The notes under the pieces are model-generated. The model saw only the letters and a list, made by a program, of their open reading frames with translations, was not told where the DNA came from and ran no database searches. From IMG/VR virus record IMGVR_UViG_2861038214_000003, positions 1 to 47,202 of that record: 47,202 bases of DNA; one strand, given 5' to 3'. Every line of letters starts with the position of its first letter. Within the stretch, counting starts at the first letter, position 1. Source of the DNA: a virus. Its lineage: Duplodnaviria > Heunggongvirae > Uroviricota > Caudoviricetes. Shown here piece by piece: positions 3,649 to 45,671 of this stretch. The position numbers and the translations under genes are program-made.

Positions 3649-4248
3649 TCAGAATTTATAACCGACACCCACGATGAAACCGTCAGTGCGCCAGTCACCA
3701 CTGCCAGAACCTTCATAAGCAATATCAATGGCCACGGATTCGGTCGGGTTAAACTGCACGCCAGCCCCCCACGCCAGAGACGTGTTGCTGTGGCGACCGT
3801 CATCACTTCCGGTCAGCACATCGTGCTTTTTCCCCTTGTTGTCAGTTACGCGGATATAATCTCCGGAGAAAGTCGAAACACGGCTGTAAGCCATACCCGC
3901 CATCGCATACGCGCTGAACCATTCATTCACGCGCACAGACGGCCCCGCCATCACGCTGAACCAGCGGTTACGCACTGAATCTTCATGCCAGCGGGTATCG
4001 CTGTAACGGGTCAGCTGGCGATTCTTGTCTCCTGCATAGCTGAATGACGTCACCAGCCCCAGCGTATCCGTAAACTCATAACGGTATTTCACGTTAATCC
4101 CGTTAAGATCATCGCTGCCGGGAACGTTCGTCGAGGCATGAAGATACCCCGCGCTCAGCGTGGACTGATGTTCAGACGCCCATGCAGGCGCACCGGATAC
4201 GACCAGACAGATGGCTGCGGACAAAATGGCTGCACAAACTTTACGCAT
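3649..4248 (-). CDS. lom: Lom/Ail-family outer membrane beta-barrel protein
   Basis: 199-aa ORF with a signal peptide; resembles lambda Lom from memory; ends ..GVGYKF. Sits in the canonical J-lom-stf position. Confidence 0.9.
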   Translation of the reverse strand: MRKVCAAILSAAICLVVSGAPAWASEHQSTLSAGYLHASTNVPGSDDLNGINVKYRYEFTDTLGLVTSFSYAGDKNRQLTRYSDTRWHEDSVRNRWFSVMAGPSVRVNEWFSAYAMAGMAYSRVSTFSGDYIRVTDNKGKKHDVLTGSDDGRHSNTSLAWGAGVQFNPTESVAIDIAYEGSGSGDWRTDGFIVGVGYKF

Positions 4249-4314: not shown

Positions 4315-7716
<3,402 letters not shown>

Positions 7717-27698: not shown

Positions 27699-28163
27699 TT
27701 ACTTTAAACACTGCTCGGTTATGTATTGCTGAGCACCTTCAAGTTGGGCCTGCATCATTACCAGTCGTTCCCGGAGGGTGAAATAATCCCGTTCAGCGGT
27801 GTCTGCCAGTCGGGGGGAGGCTGCATTATCCACGCCGGAGGCGGTGGTGGCTTCACGCACTGACTGACAGACTGCTTTGATGTGCAACCGACGACGACCA
27901 GCGGCAACATCATCACGCAGAGCATCATTTTCAGCTTTCGCATCAGCTAACTCCTTCGTGTATTTTGCATCGAGCGCAGCAACATCACGCTGACGCATCT
28001 GCATGTCAGTAATTGCCGCGTTCGCCAGCTTCAGTTCTCTGGCATTTTTGTCGCGCTGTTCTTTGTAGGCGATGGCGTTATCACGGTAATGATTAACACC
28101 CCATGACAGGCAGACGACGATGCAGATAACCAGAGCGGAGATAATCGCGGTTACTCTGCTCAT
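27699..28163 (-). CDS. Rz: Spanin, inner-membrane subunit Rz
   Basis: Closely matches lambda Rz from memory ([15 protein letters not shown]..). Confidence 0.95.
27758..27943 (-). CDS. Rz1: Spanin, outer-membrane lipoprotein Rz1, embedded in the +1 frame of Rz
   Basis: [24 protein letters not shown].., lipobox VVGC, Pro-rich, lambda Rz1-like. Confidence 0.9.
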
Positions 28164-28639: not shown

Positions 28640-28990
28640 TTACTCCTTATGGGCACCGAACTTGTTACCGATGACCCTCATTGCCGCACCACGAATAGCA
28701 TCAACACCAATCAGCCCCACCCCACCACCAATGGCAACAGAAAGTGATTTAGGCCATCCGACATACTCAAGCGCGGATGCAAAGGTCAGCGTCAGAGCAC
28801 CACAAAGCAGAATCTCAAGCGTTTTTCGTTTCCAGCCGCCGCCACCGCCAAAATAGGCAATGCGCAAACCAGCCATAATAATTGACATAACCACTGCACC
28901 CAGCGGCGTATCTCCACGCCACCAACTTTGTAAGAGTTCCAGTAAGTCAGGCCAGGAATGAGGGGCATTGTGCATTTTCATAAGCCTCAC
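28640..28990 (-). CDS. Holin (not lambda S-like), three predicted TM segments, MRLMKMH N-terminus with alternative Met starts
   Basis: Position immediately upstream of the endolysin; hydrophobic segments; several Met codons in the first six residues. Confidence 0.75.
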   Translation of the reverse strand: MRLMKMHNAPHSWPDLLELLQSWWRGDTPLGAVVMSIIMAGLRIAYFGGGGGWKRKTLEILLCGALTLTFASALEYVGWPKSLSVAIGGGVGLIGVDAIRGAAMRVIGNKFGAHKE

Positions 28991-29079
28991 CTCCGAGAGT
29001 TCGGATGGTGCTAAGTGTAAGATTCAGGCTCTCAGGCTTGCTAACAAGAAGTCGAGGATGTTTCCGGAGCCTAACAACG

Positions 29080-29104
29080 AAAAAGCCCCGGGACATGCCG
29101 GGGC
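29080..29104 (-). terminator. Candidate intrinsic terminator just upstream of the holin (tR'-like position)
   Basis: Minus strand GCCCCGG-catgtc-CCGGGGC followed by TTTTT. Confidence 0.5.
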
Positions 29105-29198
29105 CAGATGGAGTGCCAGATTAAGCTTCTGGCGGTATATACTCGTGTTTGATATCGTTAAATCGCCAAAAGTAACAATTCAAACAAAGAGGATTTTT

Positions 29199-29360
29199 AT
29201 GTCTGAAAAAAACAAACCACAAGGTGAAAATAAACCTCAGCACCCCGTGGCACCAAAACCAACTCCAACACAAAGTACTACAGACTTTGCTACACGTCGT
29301 GTTTTTGTTGGAGATTCTGCCGACTCAGTCATTGAACATATAAAAAAACAGCCGAGATAA
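29199..29360 (+). CDS. Small basic/Pro-rich ORF (53 aa), opposite strand, overlapping the end of the membrane-protein ORF
   Basis: AAGAGG RBS 7 nt before the ATG; MSEKNKPQGENKPQHPVAPKPTPTQSTTDFATRRVFVGDSADSVIEHIKKQPR. Confidence 0.3.
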   Translation: MSEKNKPQGENKPQHPVAPKPTPTQSTTDFATRRVFVGDSADSVIEHIKKQPR

Positions 29361-29898
29361 ACATCGCCGCTACCGGAGCAAGGATGGTATACATCCTTGC
29401 TTTATCGAGACTCGTGCGGATTTTCTCATTTTCCAACAGTAACTCTCTTGCTGTATCACTCAAGTCAACAAGGCGATACCTTCGTATAAGCGGCAATAAC
29501 TTATCAGGTCCTAAATATCCTGCATCAGCGAATATTTTAAAGCTCGAGGGCTCCATATCCTTATATTTTTCATGATATAGATGATCAGGAGGGGCATTGA
29601 TCAGGCCCCTAACCTTCACAGATAAACCAGTACATACCAAGTAAATGGCGCACCATGTCCATAGTAATGTAAATGTGGTAATTCCGGCGGTGAGAAAATC
29701 GAAATTAGTTTTCTGTGTCAGCAATAAAAAAGATGAACCAATTCCAACAATCTGAATGTTCAGAAGTTTGTATCCATTCTCAACATTGGTTTTGTTAGAA
29801 AGATGAATCTCTCGTATCGTCTCTTCCCCTTGTTTTTCAAGATAATCGACGAGCTCATCATCTACTCCTAAAAAATAATCTTTAGGTAGTTCTCTCAT
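29329..29898 (-). CDS. Hypothetical membrane protein (cargo between Q-like gene and holin)
   Basis: 189-aa ORF with about three hydrophobic helices; AT-rich; occupies the Q-to-S slot where lambdoid phages carry late-expressed morons. Confidence 0.5.
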   Translation of the reverse strand: MRELPKDYFLGVDDELVDYLEKQGEETIREIHLSNKTNVENGYKLLNIQIVGIGSSFLLLTQKTNFDFLTAGITTFTLLWTWCAIYLVCTGLSVKVRGLINAPPDHLYHEKYKDMEPSSFKIFADAGYLGPDKLLPLIRRYRLVDLSDTARELLLENEKIRTSLDKARMYTILAPVAAMFISAVFLYVQ

Positions 29899-30119
29899 CT
29901 CACCTCCACATCCTGTACTGAAAACAATTTTACCAGAATGTCTCGATTCTAGGTATTCCGCCAGGAATCGCGCTCCAGAAATGAAACATCAGGTTCGCCA
30001 GTACCAGAAACAACAAAACCCGCTCAATGGCGGGTTCTGGTAAAGTTCATGCGCTTGGTTCGCCTCGCGATACAGCTTTGCGAAGCATACCGGAATTGAA
30101 GCAGTTTATGCGTAAAAAA

Positions 30120-30662
30120 TCAAGCTATTTTTTGAGCAAATGATTCTCGCATGGGAATATATAGGGCATACTCAGCAACAGCCAACCAATTAGCAATTCG
30201 CTTTTCGCATGTGCTAAAACACCACTCAGGATGTGCATCATTTAGCAATTCAGCCATTTTGCGCTTAGTCATCCCCCGTCCTTCATACCGTTGCCGGAGG
30301 ACACTAATCAATCCAGGATGCTCTGCCAGCACCTCACTTATGACTCTATCAATACATAACGCCTCTGCATCAGTACAATGCGCCAGCCAGATCTTTTGCT
30401 TGCCATTGATCATCTCTCGCAAAAACGCTTCCAGCTCAGGTTTCTCTATTCCCGCTTTTTTCATCCTGCGCAGGGCTTCATTGACGGCTGTTTTCGTCAA
30501 TTTTTTGGATGCCAGCAACTGGTTAAACATATTTCCCGTCTTACCGCCGCCAATATACGACCAGCGCCCCCACATGCGCAGTTTTCCCTGAATCCAGACA
30601 CTTTCCAGCGTGGTGAGACGAAGGTGTTCCCCGCTTTTGCCTGTATTTGTTGGGTAAATCAT
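30120..30662 (-). CDS. Putative late-gene antiterminator (Q-like), assigned by position; start refined to the ATG overlapping the ybcO-like stop
   Basis: ATGA start/stop overlap with the upstream gene; last gene before the lysis cassette; sequence not confidently matched to a Q family. Confidence 0.4.
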   Translation of the reverse strand: MIYPTNTGKSGEHLRLTTLESVWIQGKLRMWGRWSYIGGGKTGNMFNQLLASKKLTKTAVNEALRRMKKAGIEKPELEAFLREMINGKQKIWLAHCTDAEALCIDRVISEVLAEHPGLISVLRQRYEGRGMTKRKMAELLNDAHPEWCFSTCEKRIANWLAVAEYALYIPMRESFAQKIA

Positions 30663-30949
30663 AAATAACCTTCCTTTCTCCAGATTTCTTGTGTGCGAAA
30701 AACACCTTCTGCATGCATCAGGCGTAATTCTTCTTTGGTGTAATCGCTGGTTTTTACCCGCCCGTCGATTAAATCGTGGCATGAGCTACAGGCAATCGCT
30801 GCCTGCATATCGTGTGGTTTTGTCGCTGTTCCGCACGTCCCCGCCAGCCTGTAATGCGCCAGCACAGATGTTTCGGGATTGTGATTGCAGTAGCCAGGAA
30901 TTCTGACGGTGCACATCTGCCCCCGCGCCGCTTTACGTAAATCCACCAT
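30659..30949 (-). CDS. YbcO-like (DUF1364) putative zinc-binding nuclease
   Basis: MVDLRKAARGQMCTVRIPGYCNHNPETSVLAHYRLAG.. resembles DLP12 YbcO as I recall it; Cys-rich. Confidence 0.7.
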   Translation of the reverse strand: MVDLRKAARGQMCTVRIPGYCNHNPETSVLAHYRLAGTCGTATKPHDMQAAIACSSCHDLIDGRVKTSDYTKEELRLMHAEGVFRTQEIWRKEGYL

Positions 30950-32013: not shown

Positions 32014-32166
32014 TCACTCCTCAGGTTCGTAAGCTGTGAAGACAGCGACCTCCGTCTGACCGGTTCGGATTTGTACCTCGCAGAAGTCTTTCCTTGTTAC
32101 CAGTGCCATCACAACGACGGTAATACAGATGACAATCAGGGCGATTAACATCGTCTTTTGCTGCAT
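32014..32166 (-). CDS. hokD: Hok/Gef-family type I toxin (HokD/RelF-like)
   Basis: Hand translation MQQKTMLIALIVICITVVVMALVTRKDLCEVQIRTGQTEVAVFTAYEPEE* closely matches HokD/RelF from memory; a 9-bp-stem hairpin lies just 3' (31986-32007). Confidence 0.85.
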   Translation of the reverse strand: MQQKTMLIALIVICITVVVMALVTRKDFCEVQIRTGQTEVAVFTAYEPEE

Positions 32167-32314
32167 CACAGCCTACTTACCCTTACCTTTCGTTCAAGCG
32201 GTAAGGTCACTTTTTCTGTTGTGTGCTAACCAACAAACCTCTTTTATCTGCATTAAAAATCGTTATCATGTCATCCTCAACCTGTTAATAGCCTATTATG
32301 GACTTTAGTAAACA

Positions 32315-34144
32315 ATGAGCACTTCCGCATACAAGAGCAAAATTCGAACACTCCAGTGCGCGTTAAAAAACGGTGAATTTGAACCATTCATACAACATAT
32401 CCGTTTTCCATACTTTAAAAATATAGAGCAGAATGCAAGGATCGATTTTCAGTTCCCTATAACGGCTTTAGTAGGAAAAAATGGAACTAATAAAAGTTCT
32501 GTTATCAAAGCGCTATTTGGTTGCCCACATGGTAAAAATATAACTCGTTATTGGTTCACAACTGAAACAGATGAGTTTCCTGACCTAAAACTTGCTGATG
32601 GCAGTTCTCTTAAACCTAGATATATATATGGATATAAAAATGCTGATGGCCGTTTAGTTGAAATACTCCAAGCACGTATCAATGCTACCAAGAAAACAAT
32701 CGATTATTGGGAAACAAGTCGACCATCTGTTGGTGATAACATGGAGAGTATTTCGGATGATCTGGGTGCTAATAGTAATGCAACCAGATGGAAAAAAATC
32801 AAGAAGGGATTGGTTTTCCTAGATTTCAGATCGGAAATAAGTGCATTTGATAGATGTATGTATCACTCTGATTTTAAATTAAGAAAGAAGAAGAGTGGTG
32901 TATTAATTACAAAGCAAGACTATATCAGAAGCAAATCTAAATATATAAAGAAAGCTTTTGATGAAAAGCTAAGTAATTTAAGACTCTGGGGGGCGGAAAC
33001 CATTGTTAAAAATATAACCTTGGCGCCAGAACTAGTTGAGCACGTCTCATTTATATTAGGGAAAAAATATAAAGTCATTAAATTTCTTGAGCATCGGTTA
33101 TTTGGAACCAGAGGAGGAACCGCTTTACTTTCAACTGATAAGTTGAACTATACAGAAGCGTTTGCTGGAAGTGGTGAATTTGCAATAGTTTCACTAATAC
33201 TCAATATTTATTCGGCCAAACCTAATTCATTAATTCTTCTTGACGAACCAGAAGTTTCACTTCACCCTGGTGCACAAAAAAGGATGATGGATGTTCTGTA
33301 CTCTATTGTTGAGCAGAAAAAACATCAAGTGGTAATATCAACCCATTCTCCTGTTATTGTGAACACTCTTCCCAAAGATGCCATTAAATTATTTGTTTTT
33401 GATGAAGAGAGTGAAACAGCTAAAATAGTTCAAAATATAGCACCGGATGAAGCTTTTATAGAGCTAGGGCATGATATTAACAAGAAAACAATAATTGTAG
33501 AAGATAAATTAGCTAAAGCAATTATAGATAAAGCGATTAAAAATGATGAAAGATTAAGCTTATCATTTAGTGTAAGTTATATACCAGGTGGTTCGGAGAC
33601 CATTTTAAGCAAGCATCTTCCCAGTTACGCTGTGGTAGAACGCAATGATATTTTGTTTTTACTTGATGGTGATAAAAACAAAAAAATAAAACCAGTAAGA
33701 ATTAGTGAAATTGCTGATGCTGATTTAGTTAATACAATGTGCAAATATTATGGTTGCGAGTTAATTATCAATGCCAGTGGTAGTAATGGCAAAAAAAATG
33801 AACAAGAATCTAATAGACTCAAAAGGCAAGTGCTTGAGTATGCATTCAATAAAGTGCAGTATTTACCATTTGATACTCCCGAACAATTACTCATTGAAAA
33901 GGCAATTACGCCAAGTGAAAAAGAAATAATTGATTCACAGACCTGGAGTTCTAATGATCCAGAACTGTATAAGAATCAAATAAGATTATTAGCGCAACAC
34001 CTGTATGATAAAGAAGAAGTAAATGCAGAGGAAATTTTTTGCCTCCAACAAATGATGACCGCAAGACTTAAAAATGAATTGCCTGAATTTATAAAAATAA
34101 GAAAAATAATTACTCAGGCTCTTGACCGTGGTATCATTAGGTAG
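32315..34144 (+). CDS. OLD-family ABC-ATPase/TOPRIM nuclease (class 1 OLD-like, or a fused PARIS-like AriA-AriB)
   Basis: Deviant Walker A LVGKNGTNKSS, Walker B with LHP (LILLDEPEVSLHPGA), H-loop VISTHSP, then TOPRIM-like Glu (TIIVEDKLAKA) and DxD (LFLLDGDKNKK); 609 aa, AT-rich. Confidence 0.75.
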   Translation: MSTSAYKSKIRTLQCALKNGEFEPFIQHIRFPYFKNIEQNARIDFQFPITALVGKNGTNKSSVIKALFGCPHGKNITRYWFTTETDEFPDLKLADGSSLKPRYIYGYKNADGRLVEILQARINATKKTIDYWETSRPSVGDNMESISDDLGANSNATRWKKIKKGLVFLDFRSEISAFDRCMYHSDFKLRKKKSGVLITKQDYIRSKSKYIKKAFDEKLSNLRLWGAETIVKNITLAPELVEHVSFILGKKYKVIKFLEHRLFGTRGGTALLSTDKLNYTEAFAGSGEFAIVSLILNIYSAKPNSLILLDEPEVSLHPGAQKRMMDVLYSIVEQKKHQVVISTHSPVIVNTLPKDAIKLFVFDEESETAKIVQNIAPDEAFIELGHDINKKTIIVEDKLAKAIIDKAIKNDERLSLSFSVSYIPGGSETILSKHLPSYAVVERNDILFLLDGDKNKKIKPVRISEIADADLVNTMCKYYGCELIINASGSNGKKNEQESNRLKRQVLEYAFNKVQYLPFDTPEQLLIEKAITPSEKEIIDSQTWSSNDPELYKNQIRLLAQHLYDKEEVNAEEIFCLQQMMTARLKNELPEFIKIRKIITQALDRGIIR

Positions 34145-34167
34145 TGATTCTGGATGCAGAGGGAAAA

Positions 34168-35208
34168 ATGAAAAAAATCAAAGTGTTTGACTTCTTTTCC
34201 GGTTGTGGTGGAACCAGCCAAGGTTTCCATCAAGCTGGAATGGATATTGTTTTTGGCCTCGATTTCGACGTTGATGCAGCCAGTTCATTTCGTGCAAATT
34301 TCCCGCAGGCTGCTTTTATTAACTCGGACATTAGGTTAATCGACAACAATGCCATAAACAAGTTAGTAAAAAAACATCGTAATGATTACATTCTTTTTTC
34401 AGGATGTGCGCCTTGTCAACCGTACTCTAAGCAAAACTCAAATAAGAAAAATGATGATCCACGATTAGATCTATTAAAGGAATTCAGTCGCTTTGTAGAG
34501 CATTATATGCCTGATTTTATTTTTGTTGAAAACGTGCCAGGAATGCAAAAGTTTAACAAAAATGAAGGAACATTCATGATGTTTTTAGAAATGCTTTCAT
34601 CAAAGGGATATAGTGTAGATTATAAAGTAATGCCAGCTGCGTGGTACGGTGTACCACAGACGCGAGAAAGATTAGTGCTCATTGCATCCAAGGATTTTTA
34701 TGTCGCATTGCCTTCTCCTACACATGGGGTTGGAAATACTCCCTATTCAACAGTAAAGGACTGGATCGCTAATTTACCGAAGATAGAAGCAGGAGAAAAG
34801 CATAATAGTATTCCTGATCATGAAGCTGCACGCTTATCAGAGCTTAATTTACGTAGAATAAAATGCACTCCTGAAGGTGGAAGTCGAGAATTTTGGCCAG
34901 ATGAATTGATTTTAGAATGCCATCGTAACCATAAAGGGCATACAGACGTATATGGACGTTTGAGTTGGGACAAACCAGCCAGCGGACTAACAACTCGTTG
35001 TATTAGCTATTCAAATGGACGTTTTGGACATCCAACACAAAATCGAGCAATATCGGTTCGTGAAGCAGCGTGTCTACAAACATTTCCTTTGGATTATAAA
35101 TTTATTGGTTCTTTGCAATCTCGGGCTCGTCAAATAGGAAATGCGGTCCCTCCGAAGATGTCTGAAACGATTGGAAAACATTTGCTTAATATAATCAAAG
35201 CCTCCTAG
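34168..35208 (+). CDS. DNA (cytosine-5)-methyltransferase (Dcm-type)
   Basis: Motif I FDFFSGCGG, motif IV GCAPCQPYS, motif VI FVENVPG, motif VIII QTRERL, motif X GNAVPP; GAGGG RBS before the ATG at 34168 (the ORF track start at 34144 is GTG). Confidence 0.95.
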   Translation: MKKIKVFDFFSGCGGTSQGFHQAGMDIVFGLDFDVDAASSFRANFPQAAFINSDIRLIDNNAINKLVKKHRNDYILFSGCAPCQPYSKQNSNKKNDDPRLDLLKEFSRFVEHYMPDFIFVENVPGMQKFNKNEGTFMMFLEMLSSKGYSVDYKVMPAAWYGVPQTRERLVLIASKDFYVALPSPTHGVGNTPYSTVKDWIANLPKIEAGEKHNSIPDHEAARLSELNLRRIKCTPEGGSREFWPDELILECHRNHKGHTDVYGRLSWDKPASGLTTRCISYSNGRFGHPTQNRAISVREAACLQTFPLDYKFIGSLQSRARQIGNAVPPKMSETIGKHLLNIIKAS

Positions 35209-45274: not shown

Positions 45275-45469
45275 ATGAGATATGACAATGTTAAACCATG
45301 TCCATTTTGTGGTTGTCCATCAGTAACGGTGAAAGCCATTTCAGGATATTACCGAGCGAAGTGTAACGGATGCGAATCCCGAACCGGTTATGGTGGAAGT
45401 GAAAAAGAAGCACTCGAAAGATGGAATAAACGAACCACTGGAAATAATAATGGAGGTGTTCATGTATAA
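45275..45469 (+). CDS. ralR: RalR, type I toxin (DNase)/restriction alleviation protein
   Basis: MRYDNVKPCPFCGCPSVTVKAISGYYRAKCNGCESRTGYGGSEKEALERWNKRTTGNNNGGVHV (64 aa). Confidence 0.85.
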   Translation: MRYDNVKPCPFCGCPSVTVKAISGYYRAKCNGCESRTGYGGSEKEALERWNKRTTGNNNGGVHV

Positions 45470-45671
45470 AATTACCGCCACTATTGAAAAGGAAGGTGGC
45501 ACTCCTACTAACTGGACAAGATATTCAAAATCTAAACTAACGAAATCAGAATGCGAAAAAATGCTCTCAGGTAAAAAAGAAGCAGGCGTTTCCAGAGAGC
45601 AGAAAGTAAAACTGATAAATTTTAATTGCGAGAAACTTCAGTCCTCGAGAATTGCATTGTATTCAAATTAA
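45462..45671 (+). CDS. ydaC: YdaC-like small protein
   Basis: GGAGG RBS; MYKITATIEKEGGTPTNWTRYSK.. (69 aa); start overlaps the ralR end. Confidence 0.7.
   Translation: MYKITATIEKEGGTPTNWTRYSKSKLTKSECEKMLSGKKEAGVSREQKVKLINFNCEKLQSSRIALYSN

What the first reader, a model, noticed from the sequence alone, without database searches (positions are those of the whole stretch)
28991..30119. Cargo in the Q-to-holin slot (the position where Stx phages carry toxin genes)
About 1.1 kb separates the Q-like gene from the holin. It holds an AT-rich 189-aa multi-TM protein ORF, an overlapping opposite-strand 53-aa basic ORF with a good RBS, and a terminator-like hairpin directly before the holin. Genes here are expressed at high level late in induction from the Q-dependent promoter, so the membrane protein is a candidate late-expressed moron (exclusion, abortive-infection or virulence-type function).
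Basis: partly seen in the sequence, partly recalled or inferred. Interest (0 to 1): 0.5.

Follow-up and report, generated by a model that had tools for sequence, protein, structure and literature searches.

The report
Two-gene moron between Q and holin
The 1.1-kb gap between the late-gene antiterminator and the lysis genes of this Rac prophage holds a self-contained, widely conserved two-gene cassette of unknown function (a membrane protein plus a tiny proline-rich protein read from the opposite strand), most likely a phage-versus-phage exclusion module.

Summary
The window is an E. coli Rac-type cryptic prophage whose late region runs on the minus strand. Between Q (stop 30120) and the holin (start 28990/28981) lie an AT-rich 189-aa membrane-protein gene (29898..29329, -), a real 53-aa gene on the other strand (29199..29360, +) whose 3' end overlaps it by 32 nt, and two intrinsic terminators.

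New here: the two genes form an obligate pair. The small ORF accompanies the large gene in 87 of 89 related loci, and also in relatives of only 20-30% identity found in Mu-like, P2-like and other phages. It evolves as a coding sequence.

The pair is a mobile, insulated cassette. It sits behind four unrelated Q families and in front of six holin families, and sometimes inside tail operons. It has a conserved TAAAAT -10-like element and terminators on both sides. Rac variants with the same Q carry tRNAs or TolA-like genes in this slot instead.

Neither protein matches Pfam, NCBIfam, PADLOC or any solved structure, and PHROGs lists both as unknown.

Best reading (inferred, about 0.4): a moron encoding an inner-membrane effector and a small antagonist partner, coupled by convergent transcription, serving phage exclusion or abortive infection. 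No function was demonstrated, and there is no evidence for virulence or lysis roles.

The parts
30120..30782 (-). Q-like late antiterminator gene (context; PGAP start 30662)
   Evidence: PF06576 DUF1133 2.5e-108, PF06530 9.5e-06, phrog_753 'anti-termination protein Q-like' 1.6e-79
30156..30185 (-). pR'-like sigma-70 promoter candidate (TTGGCT-18-TATATT) inside the 3' end of Q
   Evidence: The only promoter-like site found in 28900-30250. A similar TTGACT-18-TATATT follows the related Q in L014 and L002. The assignment as pR' is inferred.
30005..30039 (-). tR'-like intrinsic terminator / upstream insulator of the cassette
   Evidence: 10-bp stem CAGAACCCGC...GCGGGTTTTG followed by TTGTTTCTGG. 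22 of 27 non-redundant cassette loci have a terminator 55-165 nt upstream of the large gene.
29927..29935 (-). conserved -10-like element TGgTAAAAT, 28 nt upstream of the large-gene ATG (candidate own promoter)
   Evidence: 'cattcAGGTAAAAT' is conserved 25-37 nt before the ATG in most divergent loci, including those not downstream of a Q gene. Promoter activity was not tested.
29329..29898 (-). 189-aa inner-membrane protein gene (large partner)
   Evidence: phrog_11870. 104 homologues, nearly all exactly 189 aa, with 24 invariant positions. AF2 pLDDT 80.6 with three long helices. No Pfam, NCBIfam, PADLOC or PDB relative.
29199..29360 (+). 53-aa Pro/Gln/Lys-rich small protein gene (small partner), convergent
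   Evidence: phrog_14506. Present in 87 of 89 loci. Motif DF..R..VGDSA plus a basic tail. Third-codon-position changes dominate (182/150/457). Antisense frames are closed in other loci. AF2 pLDDT 62, largely disordered.
29329..29360 (.). 32-nt 3'-3' overlap of the two genes
   Evidence: The overlap is 20-35 nt in every locus examined, and 24-41 nt in relatives of 20-30% identity.
29150..29176 (+). conserved non-coding block TGATATCGTTAAATCGCCAAAAGTAAC upstream of the small gene (contains the stem/inverted repeat GTTA-N12-TAAC)
   Evidence: More conserved than the coding DNA. The 4-bp stem is 100% paired, with compensatory changes at 2 pairs. Its role (promoter, operator or 5'-UTR element) is unresolved.
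29116..29134 (-). hairpin GCCAGA-N7-TCTGGC between the small-gene upstream region and the terminator
   Evidence: 82.6% of cells paired, with 2 pairs showing changes on both sides.
29075..29105 (-). cassette's downstream intrinsic terminator, about 95 nt before the holin start
   Evidence: 6 of 8 pairs show compensatory changes across 16 loci. 20 of 27 loci have a terminator at this relative position.
28640..28990 (-). lambda-S-type holin (context; PGAP start 28981, M-K-M dual-start motif)
   Evidence: PF05106 2.1e-27; annotation.

Best explanation
The slot holds an autonomous two-gene 'moron' cassette (about 29066-29957), inserted into the Q-dependent late operon of a Rac-type prophage.

Shown:
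- A 189-aa protein with three hydrophobic helices and a cytoplasmic helical stalk, and a 53-aa disordered Pro/Gln/Lys-rich protein, are encoded convergently with overlapping 3' ends.
- The pair is co-inherited from enterobacterial lambdoid phages to Mu-like, P2-like and other phages.
- The cassette is bracketed by intrinsic terminators and preceded by a conserved TAAAAT element.

Inferred mechanism:
- In the lysogen, ordinary RNA polymerase transcribes the large gene from its own weak promoter and stops at the cassette terminator, so the holin stays silent.
- The small gene is transcribed from the opposite side.
- The small gene's product, its antisense transcript, or both restrain the membrane protein.
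- After induction, Q-modified polymerase reads through tR', the cassette and its terminator. This over-expresses the large protein and suppresses the convergent small gene by transcriptional interference.
- The membrane protein is proposed to be an envelope-acting effector that excludes or aborts other phages, with the small protein as its antidote or regulator (a toxin-antidote or immunity/self-immunity pair).
For: Pairing and coding:
- The small ORF was found by tblastn in 86 of 89 loci, and by eye in L080. The two exceptions have a truncated large gene.
- The ORFs are intact at 47-64 aa, with a conserved motif lying outside the overlap.
- Codon-position pattern is 182/150/457.
- Remote relatives also carry a convergent Pro-rich ORF.

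Mobility and moron status:
- Four Q families and six holin families flank the cassette.
- It also lies in a tail-gene context, a Mu-like tail operon, and next to P2 gpD.
- Rac variants with the same Q carry alternative cargo.
- GC is low.

Insulation and own signals:
- Terminators are found upstream in 22 of 27 loci and downstream in 20 of 27, with covariation.
- The TAAAAT element is conserved.
- A conserved terminator between the cassette and the holin only makes sense if non-antiterminated polymerase transcribes the large gene.

Membrane effector:
- The AF2 model and hydropathy support a membrane protein. The positive-inside rule places the N-terminal acidic helix and residues 93-168 in the cytoplasm.
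- TM1 carries an invariant GxGSS motif.

Orientation:
- In three remote contexts the small gene is co-directional with, and downstream of, an HTH (repressor-like) operon, while the large gene follows lytic or late genes.

Precedent:
- phi80 Tai/Ati is an immunity gene and its counter-gene arranged on opposite strands inside the Q-controlled late operon (PMC11364771).

Neighbourhood:
- The same prophage carries other exclusion and toxin cargo: sieB, hok, ralR/RalA, and an OLD-type nuclease plus methyltransferase.
Against: - No functional data of any kind.
- No similarity to any known defence, toxin-antitoxin, holin or exclusion family.
- Fold matches are only generic long-helix bundles.
- No convincing sigma-70 promoter was found for either cassette gene: there is only a -10-like hexamer for the large gene and no consensus for the small gene.
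- Which partner is effector and which is antidote is not determined.
- A natural allele with a 1-nt deletion in the overlap alters the C-termini of both proteins in at least 4 genomes. One IMG/VR locus has a frameshift in the small gene's A7 run with the large gene intact (possibly a sequencing error). If real, this argues against the small protein being an essential antidote.
- A physical interaction could not be modelled.
Confidence: 0.4

Rival explanations
1. Reverse polarity, as in phi80 Tai/Ati. The opposite-strand small protein is the lysogen-expressed immunity factor. The late-operon-sense membrane protein is the counter-defence or self-immunity factor, made only during the prophage's own lytic cycle.
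For: The geometry is the same as the published non-contiguous operon: the antisense gene interrupts the Q-controlled operon, is constitutive in the lysogen, and is reduced when Q is expressed (PMC11364771). In remote relatives the small gene lies at the end of repressor-side operons, and the large gene is co-oriented with late or tail genes.
Against: A roughly 50-aa disordered peptide (pLDDT 62) is an unusual effector. The large gene has its own conserved -10-like element and a dedicated downstream terminator, which would be unnecessary for a purely Q-driven gene. There is no sequence relation to Tai or Ati.
Confidence: 0.2
2. Lysogenic-conversion membrane protein acting on host physiology (envelope stress, transport, division) rather than on other phages. 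The small gene would be a cis-antisense or protein regulator.
For: The moron architecture and membrane location fit. The cassette is maintained at 99% identity or higher in 216 E. coli genomes within a defective prophage that can no longer make virions. The conserved N-terminal motif DYFLDADDxLVDFLEKQGE loosely resembles the FtsZ C-terminal peptide (recalled from memory, not tested).
Against: The family is confined to phages and prophages in every context examined. Nothing links it to a host pathway.
Confidence: 0.15
3. Lysis accessory: a holin regulator, antiholin or lysis-timing factor, placed just upstream of the holin.
For: The cassette lies immediately upstream of the holin in most lambdoid loci and is co-transcribed with it under Q. 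It is a small multi-TM protein.
Against: It occurs with six unrelated holin families and several endolysin types. It also occurs far from any lysis genes, in tail operons and next to gpD or repressor genes. A terminator separates it from the holin. There is no holin Pfam match. Rac variants with the same Q and a complete lysis cassette lack it.
Confidence: 0.08
4. No protein function: the region is only late-operon leader RNA, and the ORFs are fortuitous.
For: There are no database annotations beyond 'hypothetical'.
Against: The large protein has a fixed length of 189 aa, 24 invariant residues and 62% mean column identity across genera. The small ORF shows third-position-biased substitution and a conserved start and RBS. 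The alternative frames are closed.
Confidence: 0.01

Closest known systems
phi80 TaiEcA/AtiEcA immunity and counter-immunity pair in a non-contiguous operon (PMC11364771)
   Same: It is cargo embedded in the Q-controlled late operon of a lambdoid prophage, with two adjacent genes on opposite strands. One is presumably lysogen-expressed and the other is read by the late transcript. It is predicted to couple expression through overlapping transcription.
   Different: There is no sequence similarity. Tai is a 26-kDa soluble protein upstream of the packaging genes that blocks tail assembly. Here the sense gene is a membrane protein and the antisense gene is a 53-aa disordered peptide, located between Q and the holin with their 3' ends overlapping. 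The function of this cassette is untested.
Classical lambdoid morons and Q-S slot cargo (stx genes of Stx phages; lambda bor/lom; HK97 gp15)
   Same: It is an extra, AT-rich unit between conserved genes, with its own terminator and a promoter-like element. It occupies the same slot as stx, and the slot is polymorphic among related prophages.
   Different: It is a two-gene convergent unit, with no relation to Stx or other known morons and no evidence of a virulence role. It also occurs at other positions in non-lambdoid phages.
Membrane toxin plus small hydrophilic antitoxin systems (B. subtilis SpoIISA/SpoIISB; from general knowledge)
   Same: A membrane protein with three TM helices and a cytoplasmic domain is paired with a hydrophilic, largely disordered protein of about 55 aa.
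   Different: There is no detectable homology. The spoIIS genes are co-directional in one operon and are not phage-borne. Toxicity here has not been shown.
Type I toxin-antitoxin loci with convergent 3'-overlapping antisense RNA in prophages (bsrG/SR4, txpA/RatA; RalR/RalA in this same Rac prophage)
   Same: The genes are transcribed convergently with overlapping 3' ends. They are carried on a prophage, and one partner is membrane-active.
   Different: Type I toxins are hydrophobic peptides under 60 aa, and their antitoxin is a non-coding RNA. Here the membrane protein is 189 aa and the opposite-strand transcript encodes a conserved protein.
Prophage exclusion and abortive-infection membrane proteins (lambda RexB with RexA; P22/lambda SieB with Esc)
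   Same: These are prophage-encoded inner-membrane proteins with a second product that modulates them. They are expressed from the lysogen.
   Different: hhalign against this prophage's own SieB gives probability 0.1. The topology, size of the partner and genome position all differ.

Membership tests
Moron (Hendrix/Juhala sense) | Extra DNA present between two genes that are adjacent in related phages | tested here: met
   Rac variants with the same Q have tRNAs or TolA-like genes in the slot instead. The cassette is flanked by 4 Q families and 6 holin families.
Moron (Hendrix/Juhala sense) | Own transcription terminator downstream | tested here: met
   Hairpin plus T-run at 29105..29075. Present in 20 of 27 loci. 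6 of 8 pairs covary.
Moron (Hendrix/Juhala sense) | Own promoter, expressed from the repressed prophage | tested here: inconclusive
   A conserved TAAAAT (TGn in the window) lies 25-37 nt before the ATG, but there is no -35 element and the site was not called by the consensus scan. Expression is not testable with these tools.
Moron (Hendrix/Juhala sense) | Nucleotide composition differs from neighbours | tested here: met
   GC 0.37-0.41 against 0.48-0.53.
Known anti-phage defence systems (PADLOC-DB 2.0.0) | Significant match to a system protein model | tested here: not met
   0 families for both proteins at E<=0.1. Newer catalogues could not be searched. The proteins are absent from the DefensePredictor supplements.
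SieB superinfection exclusion family | Sequence or profile similarity to SieB (PF14163) | tested here: not met
   No Pfam hit. hhalign against the window's own SieB gives probability 0.1.
Holins / antiholins | Match to a holin family; linkage to an endolysin | tested here: not met
   No holin Pfam hit. The cassette occurs away from lysis genes. A separate bona fide holin follows it.
Type I toxin-antitoxin | Small (<60 aa) hydrophobic toxin peptide | tested here: not met
   The membrane protein is 189 aa. The small ORF is hydrophilic, with a maximum KD19 of 0.28.
Type I toxin-antitoxin | Antisense transcript overlapping the toxin mRNA | tested here: inconclusive
   The convergent gene overlaps by 20-41 nt in all loci. 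The transcripts themselves cannot be tested here.
Protein toxin-antitoxin (type II/IV-like) | Toxicity of one product neutralised by the other | not testable with these tools
   Only strict co-occurrence is shown.
Non-contiguous operon (Saenz-Lahoya 2019; Tai/Ati) | An operon interrupted by an opposite-strand gene that the operon transcript overlaps | tested here: met
   The small gene (+) lies between the large gene and the holin, both on the minus strand downstream of Q, pR' and tR'. Transcript overlap and mutual regulation are not testable.
Stx-type virulence cargo | Homology to a toxin or effector | tested here: not met
   No Pfam, NCBIfam or PDB similarity.

The most novel reading that the evidence does not exclude
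The cassette is the founding example of an undescribed, widely distributed phage-borne two-gene system. A three-helix inner-membrane effector is paired with a proline-rich, disordered micro-protein of about 50 aa. The two are locked in a convergent arrangement with overlapping 3' ends, and the system works as an anti-phage (abortive-infection or exclusion) module with built-in self-immunity, switched by the direction of transcription (lysogenic versus late). It is conserved from enterobacterial lambdoid phages to Mu-like phages of Burkholderiales.
Probability: 0.3. Interest if true: 0.7.

Novelty: new variant of a known kind. Interest (0 to 1): 0.5.

Why it matters
The Q-to-holin slot is where Stx phages carry their toxin genes, so knowing what else travels there matters for understanding what prophages give their hosts. 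This cassette is in about 4-5% of complete E. coli genomes (224-265 of 5426) and in many Klebsiella, Citrobacter, Salmonella, Serratia, Proteus, Yersinia and Pantoea prophages, yet both proteins are annotated only as hypothetical.

The membrane protein and the convergent micro-protein are strictly co-inherited across very distant relatives. That is a clear, testable signature of a functional pair, and it fits the recent idea that prophage immunity genes and their antidotes are wired together on opposite strands of late operons. If confirmed, it would add a new defence or toxin-antidote family and a new example of regulation by convergent transcription. It would also show that gene callers routinely mis-start or miss the small partner.

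Tried and rejected
- Family searches: Pfam, NCBIfam and PADLOC on the large and small proteins gave nothing, and PHROGs returned only families of unknown function. Pfam on 67 remote relatives gave only chance membrane DUF hits.
- PDB sequence profile search: nothing below E=0.3.
- SieB relationship: rejected.
- tRNA genes in the slot: none.
- Rfam: no family in the slot.
- My first guess for pR' (TTGATT/TTCAAT overlapping the Q stop): dropped. It lacks the -11 A and was not called by the scan. The TTGGCT-18-TATATT site at 30185..30156 is the better candidate.
- A hydrophobic 50-aa ORF antisense to the small gene (29273..29121, -): rejected. It is closed by stops in other loci and its codon-position pattern is wrong.
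- Sigma-70 promoter for the small gene: no convincing match. Alternatives involving CpxR, IHF, LexA or sigma-54 motifs were considered by eye and none fitted.
- Literature: nothing on WP_001208722, on defence hotspots in the Q-lysis region, or in the DefensePredictor supplements. Brenes & Laub 2025 is not held.
- The idea that the cassette is confined to the Q-holin slot: rejected by the tail-operon, gpD-adjacent and repressor-adjacent contexts.
Full report
**Where we are.** The window is identical to E. coli FORC 064 chromosome positions 2616717-2663918 and contains a Rac-type cryptic prophage. In order it carries intR, xisR, ralR/RalA, recET, kilR, sieB, racR, ydaSTUV, an OLD-type ATPase-nuclease plus a Dcm-type methyltransferase, hok, DUF1367, DUF1364, Q, the region in question, holin, GH24 lysozyme, Rz/Rz1, trkG and a tail-fibre-assembly remnant next to sitABCD. 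The late region runs on the minus strand. Q (DUF1133, weak Phage_antitermQ, phrog 'Q-like') ends at 30120. The lambda-S-type holin starts at 28990/28981.

**Checking the observation.**
- The 189-aa ORF (29898..29329, -) has a strong RBS and is annotated by PGAP.
- The cassette is AT-rich, at 0.37-0.41 GC against 0.48-0.53 in the flanks.
- Hydropathy gives two clear TM segments and one weaker one. AF2 (pLDDT 80.6) gives three long helices: 14-62, 68-92 and 134-188.
- By the positive-inside rule, the acidic N-terminal helix and residues 93-168 are cytoplasmic. Almost nothing is periplasmic.
- The 53-aa ORF (29199..29360, +) has an AAGAGGA RBS, pI 9.7, and overlaps the 3' end of the large gene by 32 nt.
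- The hairpin before the holin (29105..29084, -, followed by a T-run) is real. Its stem is maintained by compensatory changes in 6 of 8 pairs across 16 divergent loci.
- A second terminator lies just after Q (30039..30014, -), preceded by the only promoter-like site in the region: TTGGCT-18-TATATT at 30185..30156, inside the end of the Q ORF. Related phages have TTGACT-18-TATATT right after their Q. I read these as pR' and tR' (inference).

**The small ORF is a real gene and an obligate partner.**
- The large protein has 104 homologues in Escherichia, Klebsiella, Citrobacter, Salmonella, Serratia, Proteus, Providencia, Morganella, Yersinia, Pantoea and others. Nearly all are exactly 189 aa, with 24 invariant positions.
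- I fetched 89 loci encoding it. In 86, tblastn finds the small ORF on the opposite strand at a fixed distance. One more (L080) has it on inspection. The two without it have truncated large genes.
- The ORFs are intact at 47-64 aa, start M-S/T-x-x-N/K-K-P with an RBS, and share a motif DF..R..VGDSA(D/E) plus a basic tail. They always overlap the large gene by 20-35 nt.
- Substitutions concentrate at third codon positions: 182/150/457 among close relatives and 6965/5358/10008 over all pairs.
- AF2 predicts the small protein to be largely disordered (pLDDT 62).

**The pair persists in very distant relatives.** An exhaustive HMMER search found only about 100 representatives of this small family. 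Every relative of 20-30% identity that I inspected again has a convergent Pro-rich ORF of 27-51 aa at, or overlapping, the 3' end. Examples are MSNQKPSQPKPQQPP..., MTNEKPNSPPSAPKP... and VSNSKNPVPNPQP....

**It is a mobile, insulated cassette.**
- Among 33 non-redundant loci, the gene upstream belongs to four unrelated Q families (PF03589, PF06576, PF06323, PF06530), sometimes with an ORF6N/KilA-N gene interposed. Downstream lie six holin families with various endolysins.
- DNA similarity between divergent loci begins about 55 nt before the large-gene ATG and ends about 50-140 nt beyond the small-gene ATG, i.e. window positions about 29957..29066.
- In one enterobacterial group the cassette sits in a tail-gene region after a Rha-family gene.
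- In Pandoraea it sits inside a Mu-like tail operon. Elsewhere it is next to P2 gpD or next to HTH repressor-like operons.
- Rac prophages with the same Q carry tRNA-Thr and tRNA-Gly, or TolA-C-terminal-domain genes, in this slot.
- The cassette is present once per genome in 224-265 of 5426 complete E. coli genomes.

**Regulatory anatomy.**
- A block 'cattcAGGTAAAAT' (TGgTAAAAT in the window, 29935..29927) lies 25-37 nt before the large-gene ATG in most loci, including those not behind a Q gene.
- 22 of 27 loci have an intrinsic terminator 55-165 nt upstream of the large gene. 20 of 27 have one about 90-115 nt beyond the small gene's start.
- A cassette-specific terminator just before the holin would be pointless if only Q-modified, terminator-resistant polymerase crossed the large gene. 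Its conservation therefore argues that ordinary polymerase transcribes the large gene from the cassette's own promoter, most simply in the lysogen (inference).
- Upstream of the small gene, a 27-nt block (29150-29176) is more conserved than the coding DNA. It contains GTTA-N12-TAAC with compensatory changes. Whether it is an operator, a core promoter or a 5'-UTR element is unresolved. No good sigma-70 match was found.
- In three remote contexts the small gene is the last gene of an HTH-headed operon, and the large gene is co-oriented with late or tail genes. This suggests the small partner is the lysogeny-side gene and the large one the lytic-side gene.

**What it is not.**
- Neither protein matches Pfam, NCBIfam or PADLOC, and neither do 67 remote relatives in Pfam.
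- No PDB relative was found by sequence profile.
- There is no relation to this prophage's SieB, no tRNA and no Rfam family.
- I found no literature on the protein.

**Mechanism.** The geometry is that of a non-contiguous operon: an opposite-strand gene embedded in the Q-controlled late transcript.
- The best-documented precedent is phi80 Tai/Ati. There, an immunity gene on the opposite strand is constitutive in the lysogen and reduced when Q is on, while its antidote is made from the late transcript (PMC11364771).
- I therefore propose a membrane effector and small antagonist pair whose balance is set by convergent transcription. Both are expressed at low level in the lysogen. After induction, Q read-through boosts the large gene and silences the small one.
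- I favour effector = membrane protein and antidote/regulator = small protein, because of the large gene's own promoter-like element and terminator and the analogy to SpoIISA/SpoIISB-type pairs. The reverse polarity (the Tai/Ati logic) is a serious rival.
- The function, phage exclusion or abortive infection, is inferred only from three things: the phage-restricted distribution, the moron architecture, and the company of other exclusion cargo.
- Two natural variants are weak evidence against an essential-antidote role, if they are real. One is a 1-nt deletion in the overlap in at least 4 genomes. The other is a frameshift in the small gene's A7 run in one locus.

**Verdict.** The interpretation as Q-S slot cargo, i.e. 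a moron, is supported. The new and more interesting point is the deeply conserved convergent gene pair. Function remains untested. This is moderately interesting: an uncharacterised but clearly real and widespread phage cassette with a concrete, cheap experimental path.

Noticed in passing
window 32315-35208 (+): A 609-aa ABC/OLD-type ATPase-nuclease (PADLOC HEC-04 1.7e-34, ATPase-Toprim, AriA and PtuA models) is followed by a Dcm-type cytosine-5 methyltransferase (TIGR00675 1.4e-48). This looks like a defence or R-M-like cargo pair between hok and DUF977 in this Rac variant. Another Rac variant (L092) has an AbiH gene at that place.
   Followed up: partly
window 30156-30185 (-) and L014 about 3934-3970 / L002: The pR'-like promoter of this prophage lies inside the 3' end of the Q ORF. 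Relatives with a 90%-identical Q have TTGACT-18-TATATT just after Q, then their own terminator and an extra ORF6N (antirepressor-like) gene, before the shared 115-nt terminator segment and the cassette.
   Followed up: partly
window 29150-29176 (+): This 27-nt non-coding block (TGATATCGTTAAATCGCCAAAAGTAAC) is more conserved than the flanking coding DNA. It contains GTTA-N12-TAAC, which keeps pairing through compensatory changes. It could be an operator or an RNA element; the cause is unexplained.
   Followed up: partly
L110, L111 (E. coli 98197, 2023CK-01482) = window about 29345: A 1-nt deletion allele in the 3'-3' overlap changes the C-termini of both proteins (the large one becomes 190 aa). 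PGAP then annotates only the large gene. It is seen in at least 4 urinary isolates.
   Followed up: partly
L027 about 5691-5700 (IMG/VR): The A7 run at codons 3-5 of the small gene is A6 in one locus. This frameshifts the small ORF while the large gene stays 100% identical. It may be homopolymer slippage or a sequencing error.
   Followed up: no
window 29842-29886 (-) (large protein residues 5-19 and on): The conserved N-terminal motif DYFLDADDxLVDFLEKQGE loosely resembles the FtsZ C-terminal peptide DYLDIPAFLRKQAD. The FtsZ sequence is recalled from memory, and neither the resemblance nor its significance was tested.
   Followed up: no
window 45468-45646 (-): Full-length Rfam hit to the RalA antitoxin sRNA (225 bits) opposite ralR. 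The hok gene at 32014-32169, and sieB and kilR, are also present, so this defective prophage is dense in toxin and exclusion cargo.
   Followed up: no
window 28981-28990 and 27758-27943 (-): The holin has a lambda-like M-K-M dual-start motif. An Rz1-type proline-rich lipoprotein ORF is embedded in Rz.
   Followed up: no
L002 (PP818812, 'Actinobacillus phage vB_Apl-pPE4'): A phage deposited as an Actinobacillus phage carries an E. coli-lambdoid-type late region (DUF1367, DUF1364, DUF1133 Q, ORF6N). A 115-nt segment is 95% identical to this window, and the phage carries a 53%-identical copy of the cassette. The host assignment looks odd.
   Followed up: no
L092 4925-5899; L091/L093: Other Rac variants carry alternative cargo in the same Q-holin slot: two TolA-C-terminal-domain genes, or tRNA-Thr plus tRNA-Gly with small opposite-strand ORFs.
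   Followed up: partly
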